DNA of 64,000 bases from a virus. Its lineage: Duplodnaviria; Caudoviricetes. Of this stretch, positions 33,565 to 46,641 are shown piece by piece. Numbering within the stretch: position 1 is the first letter of the stretch; each line of letters opens with the position of its first letter. A program made the position numbers and the translations under genes. Location: positions 1 through 64,000 of the IMG/VR virus record IMGVR_UViG_3300028634_000502; one strand, given 5' to 3'. The notes beneath the pieces were generated by a model. It did not search any database and was not told the DNA's origin. It worked only from the letters and a program-made list of their open reading frames with translations.

Positions 33565-33855
33565 TTAAGAACAACCGGCACAACTTTGAACGATTTTTCC
33601 TATACGCGCGCATATACACGCTCACGATGCTTTACTACTACTATTTTCATTATTTATATCTAAGTAGTAAAAGTCTTGTTCCTGTTATTCCCGCTAAGCC
33701 GAAGTATCGATATTTGCTACGGTTTCAAGAAAACAACTATAGGAAACAACTAAAGAACAAGGAACTACCTTTATCTTTTTCGCTCGTAACAACGTTGCTT
33801 GCCGTAAATCGGAAAATTGCTTGTTCCGTTCTTGTTCCCGGTGTACTTGTTCCAA
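33565..33855. other. Putative replication origin
   Basis: TTGTTCC/GAACAA repeats, AT-rich tract and alternating purine-pyrimidine run at end of primase gene. Confidence 0.45.
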
Positions 33856-36128
33856 TCACCAATCTTCTTCATAATGCCTGCGATGGCATAAGAGTCTGCA
33901 GGTTTCATGGCTGCCGCATCCTTGCCGAAACACTCGCACCAGATTTCCATATTGCAAACAAGGGTACGTTCTACCGTACCGACATGAGATTCTCCGCCAA
34001 ATTCACTACCGTTCAGGAAGTTTCTACGCTCATAAGCTGACATGGTATCCCAGTTTTCCGGCAAAAGGGTATCAAGATAAGTACGAACCAGTCCTTCACG
34101 CTCATCGCTTTCCATGGCATCATCCTGCTCACTGGCAGCTAAATGCACGTCATCACCTTCAAGGTAGAGTTTTTCGCCCTTCTCATAAAGCACCAGTGTT
34201 TCTGCCCATATCTGCTCAACATCATAAACAGACATCTGCCAGGCTTTCTTCTTACCGTTACCACTGATACGAACAGGCCAGAACCGTCTGTTGCCCGTAA
34301 TATCTCGAAGAAATCCACTCTCTGCATTGGTAGAACCTACAATTACACACTGGCGGGGATGGCTCTCCACATTGACGCCGTAGCTGGCACGGTACTTATC
34401 ATCACACCTTGATATAAAGGACTTCACAACTTCCACATCGGTCTTACGCATTCCGGCAAGCTCCCCAAGTTCCAGCATCCAATATCCCTGCAGTTTTTCG
34501 GGACCGGCTTTATCTTTCATATCCGTTAGGGTCAAGCTGTCGGAGAACCAGTCTCCTGCAAGTTTTGCAAAGAAGGTTGATTTACCGATTCCTTGGGGAC
34601 CGTTAAGGATAAGTACACTGTCAAACTTAGTTCCTGGATGATAAATGCGTGCTACCGCAGCAACCATCGTCTTTCTTGTAACAGCCCTTGTATAGGAATT
34701 GTCCGTTGCTCCAAAATAATCAACAAGTAAGGCTTCAACTCTGTCGATACCATCCCACTCCGGCAAGTTGTCGAGATATTCTTTTATAGGATGATAGGCT
34801 CGCTCCGCTGCCACTGCAAGAATCGCATCTTTCGTCTTAGTTGGGGAGTAGACCCCATATTTATTGGATACATAAACCTTTAAGGCAGCATTGTCCGAGT
34901 CATTCCACCCTTCTTTCATCTGGCTCCAAGGCAGGCCATTTCTTGCATCAATACCATCGCGGTGTTTGTTAAAGGCAAGTGACTGCAGTTCTGGGTCATT
35001 TCGGATTATAAGGACGATGTTGTCGAGGGTGTCCTTAATCTTGCCTTGTTTATCAAGTTCAAGTGCCGTCTGCCAAGTGTCCTCAGTAAATTCAGCCGTT
35101 GCCTGATCCATACGCTCATTGGCAAACTGAGCCTTTACTTCATCGTCCTTTATGGCAAATTCGCACATGGCAACATAGGACGGCAGCTTGCTCGGAGATG
35201 TGCTCTCCGATGCCCTGTCATCCAAATTGCCAAACTTATGAATACGAACAAGGTCAAAGGCATTAAGTAACCTTCCGCTTGCAGGATCTGTCGCGTGGTG
35301 GGAATAAGCAAACTTATCATCATAGATAATGACACCGGCACTTGAGTCGGCAGGCATATAATCGTACCTGCCTGTCATTGCTGACGGTTCATATACATCC
35401 TCCAGAAACTTATCAATCGCATCTGTTACTGAATAGGTACGGCAGAAAGTGCCGACCACACCTTCCTTGGAAAGCGGGTCAGCTTGTTCTTTTAATGAAC
35501 GTTCTATTACCTCTGATTGCCTTGAGGATACAGGCCATGTGCTTGTGTCATGCCAATCATCATATTTATTAAGAAACACTTCCGGGTCAAGGAGTGAGCC
35601 GTCTTTTTCTTCATATACAAACTCGCCATTTCTTGATGTTGATGGCCAATACATCAGTCTTTCTGGCTCATAGGTAGTGTCGTCAAAAAGGTCAATGCCT
35701 ACCTCCTTTGCTACCATACGGCTGATTGCGGCATATTCTTCCTCTCCCACATCGCGGGATAGGGGAATGATCAGCCTAAGTCTTGGTTTTTCCAGGGTAT
35801 GCTTATGTGTGGAATAAATACAGCACTTATATGGGAAGAAAGTGCAGAGTTCACCCCATATACTGCTTGTGCCATAGTCCATATCAAGGGTTAGCATGGA
35901 GCGTGACAGCACATTGCCTTTTTTTCGTCTGCCGTCTTTTAAGTGACCACCGACAAAACCGCCGACATCTTTGATTGAATCCTGCCCACCCTTTTTCATC
36001 TTTCGGTATTCTTCCACGGTTTCGGTGGTACGCTGTGTGGTCTTAACACGAGAGCAAAAATCTTCCCAGCTGATATCAGTGTTCTTCCACTTTTTATCCA
36101 TTCGGCTGTTGCCGTATGCTATCTTCAT
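33771..36128 (-). CDS. Primase-helicase (virulence-associated E family)
   Basis: LTLDMD, YSTHKH, GPQGIGKST, TGNRRFWP. Confidence 0.92.
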   Translation of the reverse strand: MKIAYGNSRMDKKWKNTDISWEDFCSRVKTTQRTTETVEEYRKMKKGGQDSIKDVGGFVGGHLKDGRRKKGNVLSRSMLTLDMDYGTSSIWGELCTFFPYKCCIYSTHKHTLEKPRLRLIIPLSRDVGEEEYAAISRMVAKEVGIDLFDDTTYEPERLMYWPSTSRNGEFVYEEKDGSLLDPEVFLNKYDDWHDTSTWPVSSRQSEVIERSLKEQADPLSKEGVVGTFCRTYSVTDAIDKFLEDVYEPSAMTGRYDYMPADSSAGVIIYDDKFAYSHHATDPASGRLLNAFDLVRIHKFGNLDDRASESTSPSKLPSYVAMCEFAIKDDEVKAQFANERMDQATAEFTEDTWQTALELDKQGKIKDTLDNIVLIIRNDPELQSLAFNKHRDGIDARNGLPWSQMKEGWNDSDNAALKVYVSNKYGVYSPTKTKDAILAVAAERAYHPIKEYLDNLPEWDGIDRVEALLVDYFGATDNSYTRAVTRKTMVAAVARIYHPGTKFDSVLILNGPQGIGKSTFFAKLAGDWFSDSLTLTDMKDKAGPEKLQGYWMLELGELAGMRKTDVEVVKSFISRCDDKYRASYGVNVESHPRQCVIVGSTNAESGFLRDITGNRRFWPVRISGNGKKKAWQMSVYDVEQIWAETLVLYEKGEKLYLEGDDVHLAASEQDDAMESDEREGLVRTYLDTLLPENWDTMSAYERRNFLNGSEFGGESHVGTVERTLVCNMEIWCECFGKDAAAMKPADSYAIAGIMKKIGDWNKYTGNKNGTSNFPIYGKQRCYERKR

Positions 36129-36556
36129 AGAGCCTCTACCTCCTCAAAATTTCTATTGAAATATCTGACCAGCTGTCTGCGTTTTCTTGCCTTTTCAATT
36201 TCAATGCTCATACCCCTCGAAATATCATCACCAAGCACCCACACCTCCTGACATTTACCCATAAGGATGATATCCATGAAAATAGCGAGGTCACGCTCTT
36301 TCTCGTTGCTGTCATCCATGAAAGGGAATAGAAGGTGTGGGGTCAGTGGGATACATCCACAATTAAAAGCAAATTCTGCAAAACGAGTGGCTTTTAATGT
36401 GTTTTCCGTAATAGCACCATTAAAAGGGGCGCATATATAAACCAAAGGACGGAAGGCGGTTTTTGATGCCGCCTTGTCCGCTCTTTCAATATTGGTAAGT
36501 GCTTGATATGGCACTAAGTCCATGTAACCTTCAGAGTTTTTTATATCAATTCCCAT
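36125..36556 (-). CDS. DUF4406-like protein
   Basis: PLVYICAPF..PHLLFP..EVWVLG..SRGM..EI. Confidence 0.8.
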   Translation of the reverse strand: MGIDIKNSEGYMDLVPYQALTNIERADKAASKTAFRPLVYICAPFNGAITENTLKATRFAEFAFNCGCIPLTPHLLFPFMDDSNEKERDLAIFMDIILMGKCQEVWVLGDDISRGMSIEIEKARKRRQLVRYFNRNFEEVEAL

Positions 36557-37400
36557 AACACACCTCCATCTCAATTTGCGGATAGAAACCGTCAGCCTTT
36601 AGCTGTTCATAGATAAAGAGTCTGCCTTTTTGCGTCCACTTTGTGTGAACCTTGGTGTGTTCAAAACCATTACCATCTTCATAAACATGGGTATTGGTTC
36701 TTGTATAACCTTTGTCTGCGTGTTTCTGATATAAAAGCCAGGTATCACTTTGCTTAAATTGAATGCCCTTGTCATGGAGATACTCATTCATGCGAATGCC
36801 GCTCCAGCCATAGTCCTTGGCAATAACAGAGATGTTTACGGCATCCTTACATTTGAGAACCACATCGTAATAGGTGGCTTTCGGTTTCATCTCAGCAATC
36901 TGCTGTTGTTGAACTGCAACTGCTGCCGTAAGGGTTTTATTTCTTTCACGTTCTTCTTTAAGAGCAGTAAATGCAGCAATAGCAAGGTCGGGATTGGCAA
37001 TTAATTCATCAGTTGCATAAATACCATGCTTGCGAATTGCAGGAAGCACCTCGCTTGTAACCCAACGCTTGAACCTGTGCAGCTTATCGATTCTAGCTTT
37101 AACCTCGATGGGGTACGCATCTGACACTCCACCATTGTTTGCCTTTTGTGGCTGCATTGTAAAAAGCAGAGAATATAGACCACTCTCATTTATGAAAATG
37201 GCCGTTTGCGTTCTTCCAAGAGAATCAATAATCTCTTCCTCTATTTTATCTTCATCATCCACACGGCTAATGCTCCTGTTATGGTTTTTATCTCCAAATA
37301 TTTGGCAGATATCTTTTCCAACAAACCAAGGTGCATCATTAATTAGCAGGCTCCTAACATCACCAAATTCTTGGCTGCTAAAAATTTGTAATTTGCTCAT
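36546..37400 (-). CDS. Phage antirepressor (Bro-N + KilAC)
   Basis: PWFVGKD, INESGLYSL, RWVTSEVLPAIRKHG, WTQKGR. Confidence 0.92.
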   Translation of the reverse strand: MSKLQIFSSQEFGDVRSLLINDAPWFVGKDICQIFGDKNHNRSISRVDDEDKIEEEIIDSLGRTQTAIFINESGLYSLLFTMQPQKANNGGVSDAYPIEVKARIDKLHRFKRWVTSEVLPAIRKHGIYATDELIANPDLAIAAFTALKEERERNKTLTAAVAVQQQQIAEMKPKATYYDVVLKCKDAVNISVIAKDYGWSGIRMNEYLHDKGIQFKQSDTWLLYQKHADKGYTRTNTHVYEDGNGFEHTKVHTKWTQKGRLFIYEQLKADGFYPQIEMEVCYGN

Positions 37401-37828
37401 TTTTCGCCTCCCGCTAATACTTGCTTCATAAAACTACACGCCATTTCCGAATCTCGCTCGATGCGTTTGGTTTCATCCAAAAGATAAATATCTTTAGGCA
37501 TTTCGTTTAGAACTTGTTGTAAGGAGATAGCAAACAATTCTGTATTTCCTCTTTGATAATCACTGAAATGTCGATGCAGTATTAGTTCATTTCCCCAGTA
37601 ATTTGTGTGTCCTTGGCTTAATGCCAAATCTCCAACAGCTGCGCTTCCATACCTTTCAGCCTGCCTCTTTAAAGCCATCAACCTACGATACGGATTCTTG
37701 GTGCTGCCGATTTTTACCGCATCACCCCACTCGAGGATGTAGAAGAAACCAATATAGTCACTGCTTCTTGACTTTTCGATCTCTTTCAAATGGCCAAACT
37801 CTGCATTTTTGTAAATTTGTAATTCCAC
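37397..37828 (-). CDS. T5orf172/GIY-YIG-like nuclease with antirepressor-like N-terminus
   Basis: FFYILE..VKIGSTKNPYRRL..ELILHRHF..ELF. Confidence 0.7.
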   Translation of the reverse strand: MELQIYKNAEFGHLKEIEKSRSSDYIGFFYILEWGDAVKIGSTKNPYRRLMALKRQAERYGSAAVGDLALSQGHTNYWGNELILHRHFSDYQRGNTELFAISLQQVLNEMPKDIYLLDETKRIERDSEMACSFMKQVLAGGEK

Positions 37829-37869
37829 TAGAATTACCTCCTTAATAATTTTTGGAGGTCTTGACCTCC

Positions 37870-37902
37870 TACCTGGTAGCCACAGGAGTTGGTCAAATCT
37901 GA
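37870..37902 (-). promoter_or_regulatory. Motif A copy 3, overlapping the sigma gene stop
   Basis: TACCTGGTAGCCA-N12-AAATCTGA. Confidence 0.7.
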
Positions 37903-38441
37903 TGGTTTTCTAAAAATTCTTTAAGTTTTTTCTCTGCACGCTTTAACTTTTGGCTGATGTTATTTTCGTCAGCATCGATAGAGCGAGCATATTCACGGAT
38001 TGGTATGCCATCAATGCGTACTGCGATGAACATATCCGCCCAATCTTTCTTTTTACCAAGTGCCTTATGTATCCATTGGCAAATATCTTCATACTCGTAG
38101 AGGCGATTACGCTCAGCCTCCTGTGAATCATCAGCGAAGGTATCCATTACATCCGTTTCATCTTCAGATTCATCATCCTTGCGATAAGGAGTCTTCGGAT
38201 CGCCAAGATGCCTATGAAACTTGCGCCAGTTGTTGTATTCCTTACTGTTCATAAGGTCTAACATTTCCTGTACAGTCTCACAACGCTTTACTTCTGCCTT
38301 CTTTTCTGGCCTTGCCTCTGCAAGACGCTGCTCATAGTCGATATCCAGCATGATGCTGTAATCATCATCCGGAATATCAATTGTGGTGTAGAACTTGTGG
38401 CCGTTTTTGATGTTTTCTTCGTACAAAACTCGAATCTTCAT
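37893..38441 (-). CDS. Sigma-70 region 4-like phage regulator
   Basis: C-terminal HTH IREYARSIDADENNISQKLKRAEKKL; start MKIRVLYE with AAAGGA RBS. Confidence 0.75.
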   Translation of the reverse strand: MKIRVLYEENIKNGHKFYTTIDIPDDDYSIMLDIDYEQRLAEARPEKKAEVKRCETVQEMLDLMNSKEYNNWRKFHRHLGDPKTPYRKDDESEDETDVMDTFADDSQEAERNRLYEYEDICQWIHKALGKKKDWADMFIAVRIDGIPIREYARSIDADENNISQKLKRAEKKLKEFLENHQI

Positions 38442-38454
38442 TAAGTATTCCTTT

Positions 38455-38636
38455 CCGTCCCGGCATTGGGCGGCGGAATACAAAAGAGCCTGCGGTGAAG
38501 ATGACCACAGACTCCGCTTGTCCTTAAAATGGGCGCACGAAATCACGGTGGGTGCATCTTCATTCCAAACACAGTCTTTATCACTGTGTTCTGAACTCTT
38601 ATGCATCCCGCCGTCCTAATGCGCATCTCGGACATT
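38455..38636 (-). ncRNA. Structured 5' leader RNA with terminator and alternative pairings
   Basis: Several stems read directly; terminator 38481-38514. Confidence 0.6.
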
Positions 38637-38891
38637 GAGATTTTATTGGTTTATAGAGAGAAAATTGATTTTTAGCGAGGAAAAATTCACATCCGCATAA
38701 AAAACTTTAGAGAATGTGTAGAAATTTACAAAATTTTCTGATATACTGGACTTGCTATAGATTTCCAATTTATTTCCTCGTAATCTCTTACTCTCTACTA
38801 TTAAACTTATAGTAGATACAGTTACCTGCAAGAGCCTTCAACGGTTACTTTAGTTGATATAGTTACTATTTTTTGAAAAGGAGGGCTATGG

Positions 38892-39767
38892 ATGACTATG
38901 AAGAATAATCCGTATCTTTGCGGTGGCACCTTTTTTGTTCTTTTATTACAAGCAAAAAGGTTAAGACGCAAAGCACGAGATAAATTTCAAGGCGGCACAG
39001 ATGGCCTTAATGATACAGATGTCATGAAGGGCCTTATTTATGTAGTCACAGGACAAGCTGTAGACCCATACAACGATTCATTTAAGAAGAACACCTCAGA
39101 ATATAAGTCCTGTAAATACAATGGCGGTACATACATTCCATTCAATGAAGTTTCCACAATTAATAGCTTTGATAATGCTGTAAAAAACAAATACTCCGAC
39201 ACCCTGGATAGAATGTCGGAGTTCGCAAACGACTATTTGATTGTTGAGAATTCAGAAAAAAGAGAATGGCTTATAAAGGCTTTGCTCGATGTCATTGAGC
39301 AAGATGTGGAAATCAAAGATGGCGATTTATTTTATATTTCCAGCAATGGTGATGCCGTTTCAAGGTCTGCACTATCCGAGATTTCAAACATTGAATTTGA
39401 ACCGTTCCTTGTAGGAGTACTACACTATATCTTATTGAACCGTAAAAACAATGCACTTGGTCGCAGCACATTTGAGTCCTGGCACACCAGGCAATCACCT
39501 CATTCAGAATGGGATTTTGTCAGTGATATTGGCTGCGGGATTACACGCCCGATAACAGTATTCCTAATGGCTGTTAAAAAAGAGGATTATGCTGATTTTG
39601 AAGAAACAAATGCAGAAGAAGCACCAGAACCGGAAGTAATAATAGAAGATGCTTCAGCTGGATCATCAACACAGAACGTAACGCAGATAGTGAATAACCC
39701 CACAATTGTAAATCAGTACGGAGAAAAGAATATTCACATAGATCGGGTAGACACTTTAAATCTTTAA
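38892..39767 (+). CDS. Hypothetical protein, divergent from sigma gene, with C-terminal N/Q-rich motif
   Basis: ORF with RBS; acidic linker then NPTIVNQYGEKNIHIDRVDTLNL. Confidence 0.85.
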   Translation: MTMKNNPYLCGGTFFVLLLQAKRLRRKARDKFQGGTDGLNDTDVMKGLIYVVTGQAVDPYNDSFKKNTSEYKSCKYNGGTYIPFNEVSTINSFDNAVKNKYSDTLDRMSEFANDYLIVENSEKREWLIKALLDVIEQDVEIKDGDLFYISSNGDAVSRSALSEISNIEFEPFLVGVLHYILLNRKNNALGRSTFESWHTRQSPHSEWDFVSDIGCGITRPITVFLMAVKKEDYADFEETNAEEAPEPEVIIEDASAGSSTQNVTQIVNNPTIVNQYGEKNIHIDRVDTLNL

Positions 39768-39782
39768 AAGGAGGTGCAATAA

Positions 39783-40424
39783 TTGAAAAATGAACTACAA
39801 CAGGCACCTTCAAGCATTGTGCCTGCTAATCCTACTACTGTTAATCAATATGGTGAGAAGAACGTCCACATAGAACACGCTGATAATATCCATCAGACAG
39901 TTAACTATAATTTAACATTCATAGATCGAAGTCCTAATGGAAGAAGAGAAAATGTCACCCAAAAGATAAATACAGACTACTACAACCTATTCGTTATAAG
40001 CGGCGAAACTTTTATGCATGATCATTTTCTTGTTCCAAAAGACCGTGCCTTAGTCAAGGGAACCATATCCGATGACTTATTTGAAAGATTGGCTGCTCTT
40101 ACACCGGAAGCTATAGAGGAAATAAAGACATTTCCTGCACTATTTGCAAGTGAAAATACGGATTATTGGGGAAAGACAGACCCTGAACAGCAAACCATAT
40201 ATGGACTTGTAAGAGAAATAAGAACCCAAGATAACGGAATCATGATTTATTACAAAGATTTAAGTTTCATACCACAACAAAAAATTAATGAGATTTCTTT
40301 CGAACTCGGAATGGGTCAATCAAGGGCCATAACTTCTTTAAATACAACCCGATGGACAATAAAGAAAATTAATCTCATTGAAGCATTAACCGATGCCGGA
40401 ATCAGCGTTCTGGCACCAACTTAA
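39783..40424 (+). CDS. Hypothetical protein with the same motif at its N-terminus
   Basis: AAGGAGG + TTG; NPTTVNQYGEKNVHIEH; globular domain YYNLFV..FPALFASE..LNTTRWTIKKINL. Confidence 0.85.
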   Translation: MKNELQQAPSSIVPANPTTVNQYGEKNVHIEHADNIHQTVNYNLTFIDRSPNGRRENVTQKINTDYYNLFVISGETFMHDHFLVPKDRALVKGTISDDLFERLAALTPEAIEEIKTFPALFASENTDYWGKTDPEQQTIYGLVREIRTQDNGIMIYYKDLSFIPQQKINEISFELGMGQSRAITSLNTTRWTIKKINLIEALTDAGISVLAPT

Positions 40425-40446
40425 TTAAAGAAAAGGAGGCGGTACA

Positions 40447-42732
40447 ATGCAACCTAAAGTACCTTCTGAAATCACACAGATTTCTCTTAATGATGCCACC
40501 TATAAAGACTGTGGTGTTTCCATTCAACCTACTCTTGTGAATTTTTTCTTTGGAAATAATGGCACGGGGAAATCTACTATAGCAAAAGCTATAAAAGCCG
40601 ATACCGGCACAACCTGGAGAACAGGAAAGTTATCTACAGATTACAACATCCACGTATACAACCAGGACTTCATTAACGCCAATTTGCAGAATTATCACAA
40701 TATGCCTGGGGTTTTTACTGTAAATGAAGTTAATATTGAAATTCAAAAACAGATTGAAGATAAAACCACAGAAAAAGAAACGGCGTCTACAGCTTTAGGT
40801 ATTGCAACTGAGGAAAAAAAGAAAAAAGAAGGAGCCAATACTGCCTTGTTTTCTATCTTCCAAGATGAATGTTGGGAGAAAACAAAAGACCTCCGTGAGA
40901 CATTTGACGGAACCCAAACAGGCAAGAAAAGAAAACAGCAGTTTGCAGAGGCTATCCTTGAGATAAAAACTCCAAAAGAACATGACCGAGCAGCTTTGAA
41001 AAGATTATATGATGCTGCTTATGCCTCCGATTCCAAAAAATATGATGAGTTTAAAACAATAGCTGATACTTCTGTTCTTGATAAGCTTGGTGGAATCGAT
41101 ATTCTTGGCAAATCTATTGTAAGTAGTGCAACTACTCCATTTGCTGAATTCATCAAGGCATTAAATGCAACTGCCTGGGTTCGTCAAGGTCATGAACAAT
41201 ACCGCGAAACTCCCGATAGTAAATGCCCATACTGTCAGCAGAAACTTCCTGAGAAGTTTGAGGATGATATAAAAGCCTGTTTTGATGCTCAGTACCAGAA
41301 TGATATTATTGCACTTAAGGATTTCTATGACACATATAAGCAAAAGGCAAATGAAATATTTGCTCCGCTACAGTCAGTTCCGCAAGACCTTTATCCTGAA
41401 ATCGAAATTATGCCGTACAATGATAAACTTGCGGCTTTAAAAGGTATCATCTCCTCAAATCTTCAGCAAATCTCGGCTAAAATTGCTGATCCTTCCATTA
41501 TTATTAGCATTGATGATACCGAACCTACACTTAAAGAACTTAATGACATAATAAATGGATTCAATAAATTAATCAGTGAAAATAACGCTGTCATTGCCGC
41601 CAAACCAAAGAAACAGGCTGAATGTAAGATAAGTGTATGGGAGTTACTAGCTTTTACTGTTAAAGACGAAGTTAATCGCTATAACACAAGCAAAACAGCA
41701 TTGGAAAAAGAAATAACTACTTTTTCAACACAGATTACTACTAACAAAAGTACTGTTCAGCGTATTACTGGTGAGATTTCAGATCTCAATAGACAAATAG
41801 TAAGTACTAAAGCAACCATTGACAGTGTGAATACTCTTTTGCGTGATTCCGGGTTTCAAGGGTTTAGTATAAGAGAAAAATTTGACACACCTAATGTATA
41901 TGAGGTTATTCGACCCAATGGAAGTATTGCTGAAAATTTGAGCGAGGGAGAACGTAATTTTATAGCCTTCCTATATTTCTATCACCTTGTTCGAGGTAGC
42001 GAAACTGCCGACGGGGGTCTTAGAGATAAAATTGTAGTCATTGACGACCCTGTTTCCAGTATGGATAGCAGCTCCCTGTTTATTGTGAGTGCTCTTGTTC
42101 GTGAAATGATAGATATTTGCCATAACAATGCTGAAGAAAGAGTGCCTATTGTACAAGGTAACTTTATAAAGCAAATTTTCATTCTGACTCACAATGCCTA
42201 TTTTCATAGGGAGATTACATACAATCAAGTAAAGCACTATCAATATGTAAACTTTTATCTCATCTGTAAAGTAGACAATAAATCATCTATTAGACTGTGC
42301 GAAAGGCAGAACCCGGACATCCCAACAGAAAAGATAAATGTTAATCCCGTTCAAAATTCTTATGCTGCATTGTGGGACGAGTATAAGGAGGTAACATCAG
42401 CCATACCATTGATGAATGTTATCCGCCGCATCCTGGAATATTACTTTTTGCAGTTATGCGGATATGATGGTGCAATACTCCGCAAACGCATCTTAATGGA
42501 TCACAAAGATAACTTCATAACTCACAAGGAAGATGGCAGCGAAGATACTACTCAATATCAAATGGCATCTGCAATGCTTTCTTATATTAGTGCAAATTCT
42601 ATTGGTATTAATGATGGAATGAACTATGTAGATGACTGCATCGATGTAGTGCAGAGCCGAGAAACATTTGAGATGATATTTACATTTATGAATCAAGAAC
42701 AGCATTACAAAATGATGATGGGCATCAAATAG
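40447..42732 (+). CDS. RloC-like AAA_13 ABC ATPase with zinc hook
   Basis: GNNGTGKS, YNQDF, CPYC, LSEGE, IDDPVSSMD, LTHN, NVIRRILEYYF. Confidence 0.88.
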   Translation: MQPKVPSEITQISLNDATYKDCGVSIQPTLVNFFFGNNGTGKSTIAKAIKADTGTTWRTGKLSTDYNIHVYNQDFINANLQNYHNMPGVFTVNEVNIEIQKQIEDKTTEKETASTALGIATEEKKKKEGANTALFSIFQDECWEKTKDLRETFDGTQTGKKRKQQFAEAILEIKTPKEHDRAALKRLYDAAYASDSKKYDEFKTIADTSVLDKLGGIDILGKSIVSSATTPFAEFIKALNATAWVRQGHEQYRETPDSKCPYCQQKLPEKFEDDIKACFDAQYQNDIIALKDFYDTYKQKANEIFAPLQSVPQDLYPEIEIMPYNDKLAALKGIISSNLQQISAKIADPSIIISIDDTEPTLKELNDIINGFNKLISENNAVIAAKPKKQAECKISVWELLAFTVKDEVNRYNTSKTALEKEITTFSTQITTNKSTVQRITGEISDLNRQIVSTKATIDSVNTLLRDSGFQGFSIREKFDTPNVYEVIRPNGSIAENLSEGERNFIAFLYFYHLVRGSETADGGLRDKIVVIDDPVSSMDSSSLFIVSALVREMIDICHNNAEERVPIVQGNFIKQIFILTHNAYFHREITYNQVKHYQYVNFYLICKVDNKSSIRLCERQNPDIPTEKINVNPVQNSYAALWDEYKEVTSAIPLMNVIRRILEYYFLQLCGYDGAILRKRILMDHKDNFITHKEDGSEDTTQYQMASAMLSYISANSIGINDGMNYVDDCIDVVQSRETFEMIFTFMNQEQHYKMMMGIK

Positions 42733-42758
42733 ATTTTCTAAAGACTGGAGGTTACAAA

Positions 42759-42962
42759 ATGCGTATCAGCTATAATAAGCTATGGAAGATGCTAATCGAC
42801 AAAAACATGAATAAGCAGGATTTAAAAGAATTAAGTGGCGTAAGTGCCGCCTCCATTGCCAAGTTAGGGAAAGGCGAAAATATCACTACCGATGTCCTTC
42901 TTAAAATTTGTGAGGCCATGGATTGTCGCCTGGAAGATATTTTAGAAACTATTGACGATTAA
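42759..42962 (+). CDS. Xre/Cro HTH regulator
   Basis: SYNKLWKMLID..IAKLGKGENIT..KIC. Confidence 0.9.
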   Translation: MRISYNKLWKMLIDKNMNKQDLKELSGVSAASIAKLGKGENITTDVLLKICEAMDCRLEDILETIDD

Positions 42963-42982
42963 ACACTAAGGGGAATATTTAA

Positions 42983-43945
42983 ATGGCAATTAAAACTTTT
43001 TTTGACTTCTGCTCCGGAATTGGGGGTGGCAGAATCGGTCTTGAGCAAAACGGGCTAGAATGTGTAGGCCACTCCGACACCAGCAGGTTAGCAGATACAA
43101 CATATCGATTAATGAACGATAACGAAGATAAAAACTATGGCAACCTTAAAAAATTATCAAAAGAGAAACTACCAGATTTTGATGTTCTTATTGCTGGGTT
43201 TCCATGTCAATCTTTTTCGGTTATAGGCAGAAAAGATGGTTTTTCAGATAATCGTGGTCAAATAATCTTTCATCTGTCTAGGATTATAAATGAAACAAAA
43301 CCGAAATGTTTCATTCTTGAAAATGTAAAAGGGCTTGTAACTCATGACAAGAAAAAAACCATCAAGGTTATTATGGACGAATTAACCGGATGCGGCTATC
43401 TTGTAGATTTTAAAGTTCTAACGAGTCTCGACTATGGCGTCCCCCAAATGAGGCAAAGGGTATATTTCGTTGGTTTTAGAAATGATTTACCGATAGATAT
43501 TACTGAATTTGAGTGGCCAGAAACTGTTCCTATGCCAGATTTAAAAAATTACTTAATTGATGAAAACTTAGCTTCTGAAGAACGATTAGAAATTCTTCAA
43601 TACTACCTCAATAATCCTACAAATCAAGGAAAGTACACAGTATCCGACATAAGTCAAATGGAAGGAAAAATCATCGATACTCGTATGAATGACCTTCGAA
43701 TTTATGATGGGAAATGCCCGACTCTGCGTGCTCAACGTGATGGGATTTTATATGTTAAAAATAAAAAAATATATCAATTAACAGGCTATGAAGCTCTTTT
43801 ACTGCAGGGATTTCCAAAAGAACATGCTGAAAGAGTTAAAGACGTTGTTTCCGACCGTCACCTTCTTATGCAAGCAGGAAATGCGATGACAGTGGATGTC
43901 ATTAGGGCGTTAGGATTCAGTATAAAGAAATTTTTAGATTGTTAA
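42983..43945 (+). CDS. C5 DNA methyltransferase resembling Helicobacter M.Hpy99III (GCGC)
   Basis: DFCSGIGGGR, GFPCQ, ENVKG, DTRMNDLRIY..PTLR, QAGNAM; similarity from memory. Confidence 0.85.
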   Translation: MAIKTFFDFCSGIGGGRIGLEQNGLECVGHSDTSRLADTTYRLMNDNEDKNYGNLKKLSKEKLPDFDVLIAGFPCQSFSVIGRKDGFSDNRGQIIFHLSRIINETKPKCFILENVKGLVTHDKKKTIKVIMDELTGCGYLVDFKVLTSLDYGVPQMRQRVYFVGFRNDLPIDITEFEWPETVPMPDLKNYLIDENLASEERLEILQYYLNNPTNQGKYTVSDISQMEGKIIDTRMNDLRIYDGKCPTLRAQRDGILYVKNKKIYQLTGYEALLLQGFPKEHAERVKDVVSDRHLLMQAGNAMTVDVIRALGFSIKKFLDC

Positions 43946-43967
43946 TAAAGGGGGGTGTTTATGACAT

Positions 43968-44522
43968 ATGAGCTATTCATATAACGATTATGTGGGAGCT
44001 TTCTCAGATTCCTTCAAAAGAGTAAAGGTCGAACAAGATTATGCTAACCGCATTTCTGAGTTTGTTAAAGAACTAATAGCAGCAAAAGCAGTAGAGGAAC
44101 ATCATCAAAGGGATAATTTAAATGAAATCAAAAGATTTACAACCGGGTATTTAGGCGAAGCTGCTCTTGAAAAACTATTAGGAATCCAAATTATTGACTG
44201 GACAATAGGATATTCAGGATTGTATCACCATCCAGATATTCCTGGCTATTCTGTAGGAATAAAAACAGTTGAACAAGGTAAGTTTCCTATTATTTTTAAA
44301 GAAAACTATTATCCACAAATTATCTGCATTCGAAGTTCGAAAATACCAAATCTTATCTTTGTTTGTGGACTTGCCACTAAAGACGTTCTTAATACATATC
44401 AGGATACGAACTTGATTTTAGATAGTAATCTGAGAGCACGAGGAACCAAAACAGGATTTTATGGTTTTCAACATTTGAAACCATTTACATCACTAAATGA
44501 TATTGAAAAATATAAAAAATAA
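43968..44522 (+). CDS. Hypothetical protein, possible PD-(D/E)XK-like nuclease
   Basis: GYLGEAA..HPDI..VGIKT between MTase and REase. Confidence 0.55.
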   Translation: MSYSYNDYVGAFSDSFKRVKVEQDYANRISEFVKELIAAKAVEEHHQRDNLNEIKRFTTGYLGEAALEKLLGIQIIDWTIGYSGLYHHPDIPGYSVGIKTVEQGKFPIIFKENYYPQIICIRSSKIPNLIFVCGLATKDVLNTYQDTNLILDSNLRARGTKTGFYGFQHLKPFTSLNDIEKYKK

Positions 44523-44540
44523 AATAGGAGGAACATATTT

Positions 44541-45326
44541 ATGGCTGTATGGGAAGATTTTGAAATAGAATGCACTGAATATTTAAATAAAACTTTTGGG
44601 AAGTACGCAAATTTCGTTCATCAAGGAGGTTCGGACTCAACAGTCCCTGACATTCTGGTAAAAACTAATAAAGGCACATCGTTTTATATCGATGCCAAAC
44701 ATTGTCCTGCCCAATGTGGCCAGTTTGTTTTATTACCAGACATTTCAACGAATACCTTCGAATATAGCAGATTAAACTCTACCCGTATCAACGTGTATGC
44801 ACAAAAGATTATGAACCATATGAACATCTATTTCGAGGATTTCAAAGAAGCAGGTACAGGCGGAAAAGAAATTGTTTTGGATGACGGCGATGACACATTT
44901 GCAAAATGGATTATCAGTACATACAAAAGTAATGGGGTAAAATATTTTATTACCAATGATTATGTAATTTTGCCGGTAGATGATTTCCAAAGGCATTTTA
45001 ACGTGTCCGCAAAATACCGTATAAAAAGAAGTGGATCAAGTAACACTGGCAGAGCACGCATTGTAGAAATAATTAACTACATTCGTTCTCATGGCTATGC
45101 AATATCGGATACTCGTACCGTTGGCGATAAGCTGTTTGTAAGATCACAAGTAGCTCTTCATAATAAACGATTTATTTATCAGGGTTATGAATATATGTTT
45201 TCATTAAGAGATAATGAATTTGAAATACGAAAACTTTCCAATACCTTTAATGCGAATGTTATTTTTTCAATTAATAAAAAACGAGCATCAGGGCTTACGC
45301 GGGAACAATTTGCTAAAGAACTTTAA
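44541..45326 (+). CDS. Type II restriction endonuclease, R.HhaI homologue (GCGC)
   Basis: WEDFE..YLNKT, SDST.PDI, QCGQFVL, YRIKRSGS, LSNTFNANVIFSI match remembered R.HhaI. Confidence 0.82.
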   Translation: MAVWEDFEIECTEYLNKTFGKYANFVHQGGSDSTVPDILVKTNKGTSFYIDAKHCPAQCGQFVLLPDISTNTFEYSRLNSTRINVYAQKIMNHMNIYFEDFKEAGTGGKEIVLDDGDDTFAKWIISTYKSNGVKYFITNDYVILPVDDFQRHFNVSAKYRIKRSGSSNTGRARIVEIINYIRSHGYAISDTRTVGDKLFVRSQVALHNKRFIYQGYEYMFSLRDNEFEIRKLSNTFNANVIFSINKKRASGLTREQFAKEL

Positions 45327-45330
45327 AAAT

Positions 45331-45368
45331 AAAAAATAGGGCAAGCCTAATATGACTTGCCCTATTTT
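45331..45368. terminator. Bidirectional intrinsic terminator
   Basis: AAAATAGGGCAAG..CTTGCCCTATTTT between convergent genes. Confidence 0.85.
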
Positions 45369-45658
45369 TAATGTTCTTCAAGAAATTGAATGTAGGTACG
45401 TAATGCATAACGATACACACTCAACGTATACTGCCCAATGGGCAAATTCACAGATCCATACTGTTTCATGGTATCATTAATACCCTTGTTTTCAAATGCT
45501 TTAAAAAGTGTCTCACATTTATCATTGCTATACTCTGCATCAAGGTCGCAATTTCCAATTTCACGCTGAATTGCTTTTAATCGTGAAACAATATCACTTT
45601 GAACTTTTTTGCTCTTATCAGATTTTGCAAGCCAATTTCTAAAGTCAACTTCGTTCAT
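45368..45658 (-). CDS. Small helical protein translationally coupled to the MTase
   Basis: TAATG overlap; FRNWL..SRLK..YRYALRTYIQFL. Confidence 0.7.
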   Translation of the reverse strand: MNEVDFRNWLAKSDKSKKVQSDIVSRLKAIQREIGNCDLDAEYSNDKCETLFKAFENKGINDTMKQYGSVNLPIGQYTLSVYRYALRTYIQFLEEH

Positions 45659-46641
45659 TACTTTTCCTCCATTGCTTTTCCAATTTGCTGTGCAATAAGT
45701 TGCAAAACATCAATTACAACGGAGTTTCCAAACTGCTTGTATGCTTGGTTCATGCTATTGCATATCTTATAGCTATCAGGATATCCCATTAATCTTGCAC
45801 ACTCTCTCGGATGCAATTTTCTTGCTTTACCATTAATTAAATACCCTCCTGTTTTAGCAAATATACCACCACCGTTTGCTGATAGAGTTATTGCAATACC
45901 TTTTGTACTGTAAATCCTTTCTCCCTGTCCGCCTTTGTTTACTATGCCAAGCCTGATAGATGTTTTGTTGCTATATTTGTCGTCTTTATTCCCATTATAA
46001 TATGTATCGGGTCTATCCACATATAAATCTTTGACTAATTCTTCATCTTCCAACAAGAAATTTTCAACATGCTTAGTAAGCTTGAATGGTTTTGGAAATT
46101 CAAACCCATTAACATTCAAGTCATTTCTAAAACAAATCATATAAATTCTTTCTCTTTTCTGCGGCACTCCGTAATCAACCGCATTTAAAACTTTTTGAGT
46201 AAAGGTATATCCCAGTTCTTCCATTGTCGCTTTAACGACTTCAAGTGTACGGCCATCATCATGTGTTGCGAAATTTTTCACATTTTCCATAAATACTATT
46301 TTTGGTTTTTTTGCTTTAACTATTCTTGAAACATCAAAAAACAGAGTTCCCCGGCTATCTTCAAACCCACGTTGCTTGCCGCTTATCGAGAATGCTTGGC
46401 ATGGGAATCCAGCACATAAAATATCATGAGATGGAATGGTATTTTCATCTACTTTGGTAATGTCACCCTCTGGCATGTCCCCAAAATTATCCTCATAAAC
46501 TTTTTGCACGTGCTCATCCCATTCATTAGAATAAACACACTTTGCTCCAAGTGACTCTAATGCAATTCTAAATCCTCCTAAGCCTGCAAAAAGATCTATA
46601 AACGTATAACCCTTTAAATATTGTTTTTCTACTTCAATCAT
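45658..46641 (-). CDS. C5 DNA methyltransferase, M.HhaI homologue (GCGC)
   Basis: 327 aa; FIDLFAGLGGF, GFPCQAFSISGKQ, KGGQGERIYS, ITLSA.GGGIFAKTGGY as in M.HhaI. Confidence 0.93.
   Translation of the reverse strand: MIEVEKQYLKGYTFIDLFAGLGGFRIALESLGAKCVYSNEWDEHVQKVYEDNFGDMPEGDITKVDENTIPSHDILCAGFPCQAFSISGKQRGFEDSRGTLFFDVSRIVKAKKPKIVFMENVKNFATHDDGRTLEVVKATMEELGYTFTQKVLNAVDYGVPQKRERIYMICFRNDLNVNGFEFPKPFKLTKHVENFLLEDEELVKDLYVDRPDTYYNGNKDDKYSNKTSIRLGIVNKGGQGERIYSTKGIAITLSANGGGIFAKTGGYLINGKARKLHPRECARLMGYPDSYKICNSMNQAYKQFGNSVVIDVLQLIAQQIGKAMEEK

What the first reader, a model, noticed from the sequence alone, without database searches (positions are those of the whole stretch)
38892..40424. Adjacent genes share a 16-aa N/Q-rich motif (C-terminus of one, N-terminus of the next): candidate amyloid/homotypic signalling pair
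Seen: NPTIVNQYGEKNIHID (39696-39743) ends the 291-aa protein after an acidic linker; NPTTVNQYGEKNVHIE (39828-39875) starts the 213-aa protein. 13 of 16 residues are identical, yet 9 of those 13 use different synonymous codons, pointing to selection on the peptide rather than recent DNA duplication. Established: this head-to-tail layout is the hallmark of RHIM, HET-s and BASS amyloid signalling pairs. Neither partner looks like an NLR or Bell protein. From memory, the 213-aa domain resembles one often fused to TIR or Abi effectors; the 291-aa gene occupies the divergent repressor position. Inference: an undescribed three-gene system (with the RloC-like ATPase) in which templated polymerisation links sensing to defence or prophage induction.
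Basis: partly seen in the sequence, partly recalled or inferred. Interest (0 to 1): 0.88.

Follow-up and report, generated by a model that had tools for sequence, protein, structure and literature searches.

The report
Matched amyloid-type tags couple defence proteins
Two neighbouring prophage genes end and begin with the same short asparagine/glutamine-rich peptide, which changes in step in both genes across dozens of genomes; it most likely joins a cell-killing effector to its sensor as amyloid-signalling immune pairs do, here with new partners related to Lamassu and RloC defence.

Summary
The tail of the 291-aa protein (A) and the head of the 213-aa protein (B) share 13 of 16 residues, and 9 of those 13 use different codons.

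It is not chance. In 29 non-redundant homologous pairs the tail and head change together through at least 10 sequence classes (permutation p&lt;5e-5). In 1.84 billion proteins the motif lies only at extreme C-termini or within the first ~48 residues.

- **A** is a confident all-alpha domain of unknown fold. Elsewhere it is fused N-terminally to NACHT and NB-ARC NTPases and to an ABC-3C CTD6 domain, so it is an NLR-type effector, not a repressor.
- **B** is the head plus a PUA-like (ASCH/EVE/YTH-like) domain that is fused to TIR domains elsewhere.
- **C**, the AAA_13 (RloC-like) ATPase, follows B in 45 of 58 informative loci.
- In true Lamassu/ABC-3C operons (L071, L075, L078) the same tail/head pair splits the effector from its CTD6 adaptor.

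Best reading: a BASS-like homotypic, probably cross-beta, coupling of sensor/adaptor to effector in an abortive-infection system. Fibril formation is untested, and a static connector remains a rival.

This is a new variant of a known kind. The scan noted similar motif-coupled Lamassu operons on other DNA.

The parts
38892..39767 (+). Gene A, 291 aa: effector-type protein made of an all-alpha domain, an acidic linker and the tail motif
   Evidence: ORF. No Pfam, NCBIfam, PADLOC or PHROG hit. 113 homologues.
38892..39578 (+). A N-terminal globular domain (residues 1-229), all-alpha. It has a conserved hydrophobic N-terminal helix (L-C-G-G-T-F-F...) followed by basic residues.
   Evidence: AF2 pLDDT is mostly above 90. 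No known fold was found. The same domain is fused to NACHT+SNaCT14, NB-ARC+TPR and ABC-3C CTD6.
39579..39677 (+). Acidic, disordered linker of A (residues 230-262)
   Evidence: pLDDT below 50. Length and sequence vary across homologues (alignment A2).
39678..39764 (+). Tail motif of A (residues 263-291).
   Evidence: Conserved in the A family and on at least five unrelated N-terminal domains. It co-varies with the head of the next gene.
39783..40424 (+). Gene B, 213 aa: head motif plus a PUA-like globular domain
   Evidence: ORF. 274 homologues. No Pfam, NCBIfam, PADLOC or PHROG hit.
39816..39920 (+). Head motif of B (residues 12-46).
   Evidence: Disordered in the monomer model. It aligns column for column with the tails (A3). 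Profile hits lie within the first ~48 residues only.
39969..40421 (+). B globular domain (residues 63-213), beta-rich and PUA-like (ASCH/EVE/YTH-like). It is a candidate ligand or nucleic-acid sensor, or an adaptor.
   Evidence: The top 17 VIA-align hits are all PUA-like superfamily, Z 4.6-7.0 over the whole domain; Foldseek gives weak YTH, McrB-N and Lon-N hits. It is fused to TIR/SEFIR or CAP12-TIR in L063, L065, L067 and L068.
40447..42732 (+). Gene C, 761 aa: AAA_13 (RloC-like) Rad50/SMC-type ABC ATPase with a coiled coil and a CPYC hook
   Evidence: Pfam AAA_13 2e-128. PADLOC PDC-S06 2e-213, LmuB only 2.5e-16. It starts 22 nt after B. It lies downstream of B in 45 of 58 informative loci.
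42759..42962 (+). Small Xre-type HTH gene that closes the cassette (context, probably not part of the system)
   Evidence: Pfam HTH_26 1e-19. A gene of the same kind follows the Lamassu version of the cassette in L078.

Best explanation
A and B are an effector and a sensor/adaptor joined by a homotypic, BASS-like peptide tag, and they form the core of a prophage-borne abortive-infection system.

**Parts.** A carries an NLR-type all-alpha effector domain, a flexible acidic linker and a ~25-residue N/Q/H/V-rich tail. B carries the matching head and a PUA-like domain.

**Proposed mechanism (inferred).**
1. B molecules become clustered or released. The trigger may be ligand binding by the PUA-like domain, possibly foreign or modified nucleic acid. 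It may also be the downstream Rad50/SMC-like ATPase C, in the way LmuB/LmuC release and oligomerise the C-terminal domain of LmuA in Lamassu.
2. The clustered heads adopt a stacked in-register beta fold.
3. This fold recruits and templates the tails of A.
4. The A effector domains are brought together. In their NACHT/NB-ARC-fused relatives they must be switched on by oligomerisation. Clustering activates them, and the infected cell is killed or arrested.

**Shown here.** The tag pair, its strictly terminal position, its pair-specific co-variation and its modularity. Also the effector-type contexts of A, the fold class and TIR fusions of B, and the use of the same tag pair to split LmuA-like effectors in real ABC-3C operons.

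**Inferred.** The cross-beta (amyloid) nature, the trigger, the role of C and the biochemical activity of A.
For: 1. **Co-variation.** In 29 dereplicated pairs the cognate tail/head score averages 53.6 against 31.3 for non-cognate pairs (permutation p<5e-5). The cognate partner ranks 1-3 in most cases. At least 10 classes change in both partners at once, for example KIYNI in L040/L055/L066, ISGGNN in L014, IPNYGT in L047 and NSG-x-NG-x-QI in L028.
2. **Selection on the peptide.** 165 of 291 identical residues use different codons, and nucleotide identity is 58%.
3. **Position.** All 84 clusters found in 1.84 billion proteins carry the motif at the very C-terminus or within the first ~48 residues.
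4. **Modularity.** Tails sit on the A domain, on a second family (L012, L013, P0236...), on a wHTH family (P0298), on Bro-N (P0294) and on others. Heads sit on the B domain and on CTD6 proteins.
5. **Split versus fused forms.** The A domain is fused to CTD6 in P0214. In L075 and L078 the operon reads [A domain + tail][head + CTD6][MC2][AAA_23 ATPase]. There too the tail and head co-vary: YGD-x-P in L075, NNIN-x-TN in L078.
6. **A is an NLR effector domain.** It lies N-terminal to NACHT+SNaCT14 and to NB-ARC+TPR.
7. **Orthogonality.** Two systems with different tag classes lie on one contig (L003 and L007). This fits insulation between pairs.
8. **Composition.** Relative to the globular parts, N is 3.0x, Q 2.1x, H 2.0x and V 1.7x; L, K, R and F are depleted. 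BASS motifs show the same trend (Dyrka et al., 10.1101/2020.01.06.895854).
9. **Structure models.** Both tags are disordered in monomer models, and the tail shows a weak hairpin.
10. **Precedents.** Bab/Agp (BASS11) shows that amyloid signalling with a non-NLR sensor drives an Abi defence (10.1101/2024.11.07.622273). Lamassu works by liberation and oligomerisation of its effector (10.1101/2025.03.14.643221).
11. **Context.** A defence island on a virus/prophage record with R-M genes next door.
Against: - No experiment or computation here shows fibrils, templating or even direct binding.
- The motif profile does not score BASS cluster-20 sequences above shuffled controls, except for one sequence. 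Membership in a described BASS family is therefore unproven.
- B is not an NLR and has no NTPase.
- Fused forms (P0214) show that a plain covalent link does the same job. A static connector would therefore suffice.
- C is absent from 13 of 58 loci, and an HTH_17 gene separates B from C in 25 of the 45 loci that have C. C may therefore belong to a separate cassette.
- The PUA-like assignment rests on Z 5-7 only.
- A has no known fold or catalytic motif, so its killing activity is unknown.
Confidence: 0.55

Rival explanations
1. Static connector. Tail and head form a constitutive, stoichiometric beta-sheet joint with no templating and no polymer. The joint simply tethers an exchangeable effector to the adaptor/sensor, as a non-covalent version of the fused proteins. 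Activation then comes only from the sensor or ATPase.
For: The same A domain is covalently fused to CTD6 in P0214. In L071, L075 and L078 the tag pair sits exactly where that peptide bond would be. Many different N-terminal domains carry the tail, which fits easy effector swapping.
Against: A heterodimeric joint does not require the two partners to stay similar in sequence, yet they do so through at least 10 classes. The N/Q-rich composition, the ~25-residue length and the disorder in monomers match amyloid signalling motifs. Fungal and bacterial NLR systems also show both fused and amyloid-split forms (Dyrka et al.).
Confidence: 0.3
2. Common third partner. Both tags are docking or targeting peptides for the same site on another component, such as the ATPase C, a protease or the membrane. 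They look alike only for that reason.
For: C is the usual neighbour (45 of 58 loci). Shared docking peptides are common in multi-protein systems.
Against: Matching tags persist in 13 loci without C. They also persist in operons with a different ATPase (AAA_23) and a different head-bearing domain (CTD6). Two tag classes coexist on one contig (L003 and L007). A host-wide receptor would not give pair-specific co-variation. The only element common to all contexts is the other tag.
Confidence: 0.08
3. The motif is not functional. It is a relic of a local duplication or of gene conversion between adjacent genes, or a chance low-complexity match.
For: The two genes are adjacent, and N/Q-rich segments can arise by slippage.
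Against: 57% of identical residues use different codons across 30 pairs. The motif is conserved down to about 30% identity of the globular domains. It co-varies between partners. It is found only at termini in 84 clusters.
Confidence: 0.01
4. A is a regulator (a divergent repressor), and the pair controls prophage induction rather than defence.
For: A is transcribed divergently from a sigma-like gene in a prophage.
Against: A has no HTH or other DNA-binding hit. Its domain sits in effector positions on NACHT, NB-ARC and CTD6 proteins. The neighbours are defence genes.
Confidence: 0.03

Closest known systems
Bab/Agp abortive-infection pair of E. coli ECOR25 (BASS11; Ibarlosa et al., bioRxiv 10.1101/2024.11.07.622273)
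   Same: Adjacent genes in a prophage defence island. A ~20-25-residue motif sits at the C-terminus of the executioner and at the N-terminus of a non-NLR sensor. The motif is associated with several effector types. The outcome is Abi.
   Different: The motif here is a different sequence. The effector is a ~230-aa all-alpha domain of unknown fold rather than a small Bell-type domain. [quoted passage not shown] An ABC ATPase is usually attached. The hosts are Clostridia. Nothing has been tested experimentally.
Bell/NLR BASS1-10 pairs of Actinobacteria and Cyanobacteria, and fungal HET-S/NWD2 (Dyrka et al., bioRxiv 10.1101/2020.01.06.895854)
   Same: The same tail-of-effector / head-of-receptor layout, short intergenic distance, N/Q/G/V-rich ~25-residue motif and pair-wise similarity. 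The effector domain is also found fused to NLR N-termini. By eye the tag resembles dataset cluster 20 (N-Y-G-R-D-Q-I-N-I-E type).
   Different: The receptor is not an NLR. Profile similarity to cluster 20 is not above shuffled controls. The lineage (unicellular Bacillota and their prophages) differs.
Lamassu / ABC-3C / DdmABC (LmuA-LmuC-LmuB; Krishnan et al. 2020 NAR, not readable here; Lamassu structure preprint 10.1101/2025.03.14.643221)
   Same: The gene order is effector, small middle gene, Rad50/SMC-like ABC ATPase. The effectors are exchangeable. Close relatives of A sit in true ABC-3C operons (CTD6 + MC2 + AAA_23) at the same prophage hotspot (L075, L078). Activation by effector oligomerisation is the published Lamassu mechanism.
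   Different: The ATPase here is AAA_13 (PADLOC PDC-S06), not LmuB. B matches no MC family and A has no CTD. The effector is joined by a peptide tag pair instead of a covalent CTD.
RloC/PrrC anticodon nucleases (AAA_13 family)
   Same: C is a full-length AAA_13 protein with Walker motifs, a coiled coil and a CxxC hook. It is R-M linked, like Rlo genes.
   Different: Whether C keeps a nuclease site is unresolved. RloC and PrrC act alone and have no tag-coupled partner proteins.

Membership tests
Prokaryotic amyloid signalling pairs (BASS type) | The same short motif at the C-terminus of an effector and the N-terminus of the protein encoded by the adjacent gene | tested here: met
   Profile hits lie only at termini.
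Prokaryotic amyloid signalling pairs (BASS type) | Higher similarity within a pair than between pairs (co-variation) | tested here: met
   Mean score 53.6 against 31.3, permutation p<5e-5, at least 10 concordant classes. The same holds in CTD6 contexts.
Prokaryotic amyloid signalling pairs (BASS type) | About 20-30 residues, enriched in N/Q/G/V/I, poor in K/L, with beta propensity | tested here: met
   N 3.0x, Q 2.1x, V 1.7x; L 0.56x, K 0.73x; G only 1.2x. A weak hairpin appears in the AF2 model at low pLDDT.
Prokaryotic amyloid signalling pairs (BASS type) | The effector domain also occurs as the N-terminal domain of NLR/STAND proteins | tested here: met
   The A domain is followed by NACHT+SNaCT14 (P0312 and others) or NB-ARC+TPR (P0318, P0320).
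Prokaryotic amyloid signalling pairs (BASS type) | The receptor is an NLR (NB-ARC/NACHT plus repeats) | tested here: not met
   B is 213 aa, has no NTPase and carries a PUA-like domain. Bab/Agp shows that this feature is not obligatory.
Prokaryotic amyloid signalling pairs (BASS type) | Sequence membership in a described motif family (BASS1-11) | tested here: inconclusive
   Of seven cluster-20 sequences, only one scored above 200 shuffles with the A3 profile. No exact word matches were found in the BASS data sets.
Prokaryotic amyloid signalling pairs (BASS type) | Fibril formation, ThT/Congo red binding, prion-like seeding | not testable with these tools
   Needs peptides and experiments.
Lamassu / ABC-3C | LmuB-type (AAA_23, Rad50-like) ATPase | tested here: not met
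   C is AAA_13 (2e-128) and PDC-S06 (2e-213). The LmuB model gives only 2.5e-16 over part of the protein.
Lamassu / ABC-3C | Middle component of families MC1-8 | tested here: not met
   B has no Pfam hit at E<0.1 other than a spurious ACT_7. Its fold is beta-rich and PUA-like.
Lamassu / ABC-3C | Effector carrying one of CTD1-12 | tested here: not met
   A has no CTD. Relatives do: P0214 is fused to CTD6, and the tag-split forms in L071, L075 and L078 have CTD6.
RloC/PrrC (AAA_13) anticodon nucleases | AAA_13 ABC ATPase with a coiled-coil insert and a CxxC hook | tested here: met
   Full-length Pfam match 9-712 of 713. CPYC is present in the sequence.
RloC/PrrC (AAA_13) anticodon nucleases | Intact C-terminal nuclease catalytic residues | not tested
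   No RloC or PrrC reference sequence was at hand. The PADLOC PrrC model matches only the ABC part. No solved homologue was found.
PUA-like superfamily (ASCH/EVE/YTH) for the B domain | PUA-like beta-barrel fold over the whole domain | tested here: inconclusive
   The top 17 rows are all PUA-like: PH1033 Z 7.0, DrmA N-terminus 6.4, VcaM4I 6.0, Mmi1 YTH 5.9, McrB-N 5.9, THYN1 5.0. Z is below 8, and there is no sequence hit.

The most novel reading that the evidence does not exclude
SMC/Rad50-like defence systems (Lamassu/ABC-3C and an AAA_13 relative) contain a prion-like amplification step. Release or clustering of a head-bearing adaptor nucleates a cross-beta polymer, and that polymer converts many free effector molecules. 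Tag classes act as orthogonal 'addresses' that let several systems coexist in one cell. Phages answer with tail-bearing decoys, such as the Bro-N+tail protein P0294, that cap or poison the polymer.
Probability: 0.3. Interest if true: 0.9.

Novelty: new variant of a known kind. Interest (0 to 1): 0.75.

Why it matters
Amyloid signalling is established for NLR/Bell pairs and for one E. coli Abi pair.

If the tag here works the same way, three things follow:
- The principle extends to Clostridial prophages, to a new NLR-type effector domain, to a PUA-like sensor and to the large Lamassu/ABC-3C and RloC-like ATPase families.
- It explains how 'effector-less' adaptors in such operons find their warheads.
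- It supplies natural sets of orthogonal ~25-residue tags whose specificity can be tested directly by swapping.

The finding also makes two unknown domains testable: the A effector and the B PUA-like domain.

Tried and rejected
- **Complex prediction of full-length A with B**. It gave no verdict (score 0.00, controls not run). It is evidence neither for nor against binding.
- **Domain libraries for A and B.** Pfam, NCBIfam, PADLOC and PHROGs gave nothing.
- **PDB sequence searches.** A, B and C gave nothing.
- **Fold searches for A.** Foldseek against PDB and BFVD, and VIA-align wide, gave no fold match (best Z 3.0).
- **ESM Atlas.** It gave only unnamed clusters.
- **BASS cluster 20 (probably BASS8).** I considered that the tag belongs to it because of a resemblance by eye. 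Profile scores were not above shuffles, so I do not file it there.
- **Survey of CTD6 proteins for heads in 400 genomes of one class.** Only two strong hits appeared, and both were fused forms, so this was uninformative.
- **Krishnan et al. 2020 (ABC-3C).** The paper is not held. I could not check whether split effectors were noted there.
- **Literature search for PDC-S06/AAA_13.** It returned noise.
- **Promoter/terminator scan.** It was not above chance. It shows only that no + strand terminator lies between A, B and C.
- **A as repressor, gene conversion, chance.** All three were rejected (see rivals).
Full report
**Observation**

The window carries three + strand genes with short spacers:
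- A at 38892-39767 (291 aa)
- B at 39783-40424 (213 aa, TTG start behind a GGAGG site)
- C at 40447-42732 (761 aa).

The 16 residues at 39696-39743 (A 269-284) and at 39828-39875 (B 16-31) are identical at 13 positions. Nine of the 13 use different codons. Over the best ungapped 22-residue alignment, 14 residues are identical and 10 are coded differently.

Seven residues follow the motif in A, so it is sub-terminal. The conserved similarity is longer than reported, about 23-27 residues in the tail and about 35 in the head (alignment A3). A profile of the motif finds only these two places in the whole 101-kb record. That record is a virus/prophage record.

**Is it more than chance?**

B has 274 and A has 113 detectable homologues, mostly from Clostridia and other Bacillota.
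- All B homologues keep a head, and the A homologues keep an acidic linker plus a tail. The sequence of the tag differs between groups.
- I fetched 68 genomic loci holding B relatives and read the upstream gene. The tail changes whenever the head changes, and in the same way. Examples are KIYNI in both partners (L040, L055, L066), ISGGNN (L014), IPNYGT-x-NIN (L047), NSG-x-NG-x-QI (L028) and H-x-E-A-x-D-x-G-I-A (L054).
- In 29 dereplicated pairs the cognate score averages 53.6 against 31.3 for non-cognate pairs. No permutation out of 20,000 reached the observed sum. The pairs are related by descent, so this p-value overstates independence. At least ten distinct concordant classes is the more robust statement.
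- Across 30 pairs, 165 of 291 identical residues use different codons and nucleotide identity is 58%. The likeness is therefore kept at the protein level, not by gene conversion.
- A profile search of 1.84 billion representative proteins found 84 clusters. In every one the match ends at, or within a few residues of, the C-terminus, or it lies within the first ~48 residues.

**What the proteins are**

*A.* AF2 gives a confident all-alpha domain (residues 1-229, pLDDT mostly above 90), a disordered linker and a weak terminal hairpin.
- No fold match was found, and no family model matches.
- Context is informative. The same domain is fused to ABC-3C CTD6 in P0214. It also sits at the N-terminus of NACHT+SNaCT14 proteins (about 840-880 aa) and NB-ARC+TPR proteins (about 1200 aa).
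- That is the signature of an NLR effector domain, so A is not a repressor.
- Its N-terminus holds a conserved hydrophobic helix followed by basic residues (alignment A2). This is reminiscent of HeLo/Bell executioners, but that is a lead only.

*B.* The first 38 residues are disordered in the model. Residues 41-213 are beta-rich.
- The 17 best structural matches are all PUA-like superfamily members: PH1033/ASCH Z 7.0, DrmA N-terminus 6.4, VcaM4I 6.0, YTH 5.9, McrB N-domain 5.9 and THYN1/EVE 5.0 (Foldseek agrees weakly).
- The Z values are modest, so the fold class is probable rather than certain.
- Distant relatives of this domain are fused to TIR/SEFIR (L063, L067, L068) or CAP12-type TIR (L065). 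L063 and L065 sit beside an HTH+M78 peptidase gene, and none has a C-like ATPase within 5 kb.
- The domain therefore behaves as a sensor or regulatory module that can drive an effector on its own.

*C.* It is a full-length AAA_13 (RloC-like) ABC ATPase with a coiled coil and a CPYC hook. It matches PADLOC PDC-S06 (2e-213) and only weakly LmuB.

**Modularity and the Lamassu link**

Tails occur on at least five unrelated N-terminal modules:
- the A domain
- a second family (L012, L013, P0236 and others)
- a wHTH family (P0298)
- a Bro-N antirepressor-like protein (P0294)
- others.

Heads occur on the B domain and on CTD6 proteins. In L071 the operon reads [wHTH protein + tail][head + CTD6][MC2]. 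In L075 and L078 it reads [A domain + extra domain + tail][head + CTD6][MC2][AAA_23 ATPase]. That is a true ABC-3C/Lamassu operon whose effector is cut in two exactly where P0214 has a peptide bond.

There too the tail and head co-vary: YGD-x-P in L075 and NNIN-x-TN in L078. L078 lies in the same prophage slot as the window's operon, with replication and antirepressor genes upstream and a small Xre gene and R-M genes downstream.

The tail's partner is therefore the head, not a particular globular domain or ATPase.

**Role of C**

A C-like gene follows B in 45 of 58 informative loci. In 25 of these a 66-aa HTH_17 gene lies between B and C. In the 13 loci without C, A-B is followed mostly by HTH_17 and then an SNF2 helicase or a type I methylase.

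In the window's subgroup B and C are 22 nt apart, with no terminator between them. I rate C as a probable but unproven functional partner (about 0.55). A-B may instead be an autonomous two-gene module that nests beside other defence cassettes.

**Mechanism**

An interface that requires both partners to stay alike is what in-register parallel cross-beta stacking demands, and it is what HET-s, RHIM and BASS pairs show. The composition (N 3x, Q 2x, V 1.7x; L and K depleted), the length and the disorder in monomers all agree with BASS motifs.

Published precedent exists for a non-NLR sensor using such a tag in phage defence (Bab/Agp). Lamassu is also known to act by release and oligomerisation of the effector's C-terminal domain.

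I therefore propose the following sequence:
1. Clustering or release of the head-bearing protein nucleates the fold.
2. The fold templates A tails.
3. The effector domains are concentrated.
4. They act, as in their NLR-fused relatives, on oligomerisation.

A polymer would add amplification that a fused protein lacks. Two systems with different tag classes on one contig (L003 and L007) fit orthogonal wiring.

The main rival is a static, stoichiometric connector, and the fused forms show that this would suffice. Nothing here demonstrates fibrils or binding, and the one complex prediction gave no verdict.

**Comparison and novelty**

The kind, amyloid-type tag pairs in prokaryotic immunity, is known. 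New here are:
- the tag family, which is not demonstrably any of BASS1-10
- the effector domain
- the PUA-like partner
- the AAA_13 and Lamassu/ABC-3C chassis
- the Clostridial prophage setting.

No paper in the library combines amyloid signalling with Lamassu. Krishnan et al. 2020 could not be read.

Earlier notes of this scan describe motif-coupled Lamassu operons on other DNA. They agree with this reading but are not independent evidence.

Noticed in passing
L069:324-722 and L070:457-855 (protein P0294): A 132-aa Bro-N (antirepressor-like) protein ends in the same tail motif. It sits in a phage replication module beside a DNA polymerase fragment, and no head-bearing gene follows it. It may be a phage decoy or cap for the tag polymer, or another effector.
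   Followed up: partly
L007:5674-5886, L014:5589-5819 and 33 other loci: A conserved ~66-aa HTH_17 (excisionase/MerR-like) gene lies directly after B. It lies between B and the AAA_13 ATPase in 25 loci, and before an SNF2 helicase or a type I methylase in 10 loci. The window's own operon lacks it.
   Followed up: partly
L007, L018, L050, L052 (SNF2 helicase, 1081 aa); L005, L011, L066 (HsdM-like): A-B pairs with intact matching tags occur without any AAA_13 ATPase, next to other defence genes.
   Followed up: partly
L078:1-12123 compared with window 33771-46641: The same prophage slot (replication/antirepressor genes | defence operon | small Xre gene | R-M genes) holds a tag-split Lamassu in L078 and the A-B-C operon in the window. 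It looks like an exchangeable-cassette hotspot.
   Followed up: partly
L063:2225-3424 and L065:3928-4998: Fusions of the B-type domain with TIR are each preceded by an Xre-HTH + Peptidase_M78 (ImmA/IrrE-like) gene. This may be a separate two-gene defence or regulatory module.
   Followed up: no
window 42345-42450 (C residues ~634-668): The C-terminal region of C has R-R-I-L-E followed by two His residues 26 and 33 positions later. Whether this equals the PrrC Arg/Glu/His nuclease triad or is degenerate was not resolved.
   Followed up: no
window 38892-38960 (A residues 8-23): There is a nearly invariant L-C-G-G motif and a hydrophobic helix followed by basic residues at the N-terminus of the effector domain, plus an invariant Cys74. 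This could be a membrane-active or catalytic element.
   Followed up: no
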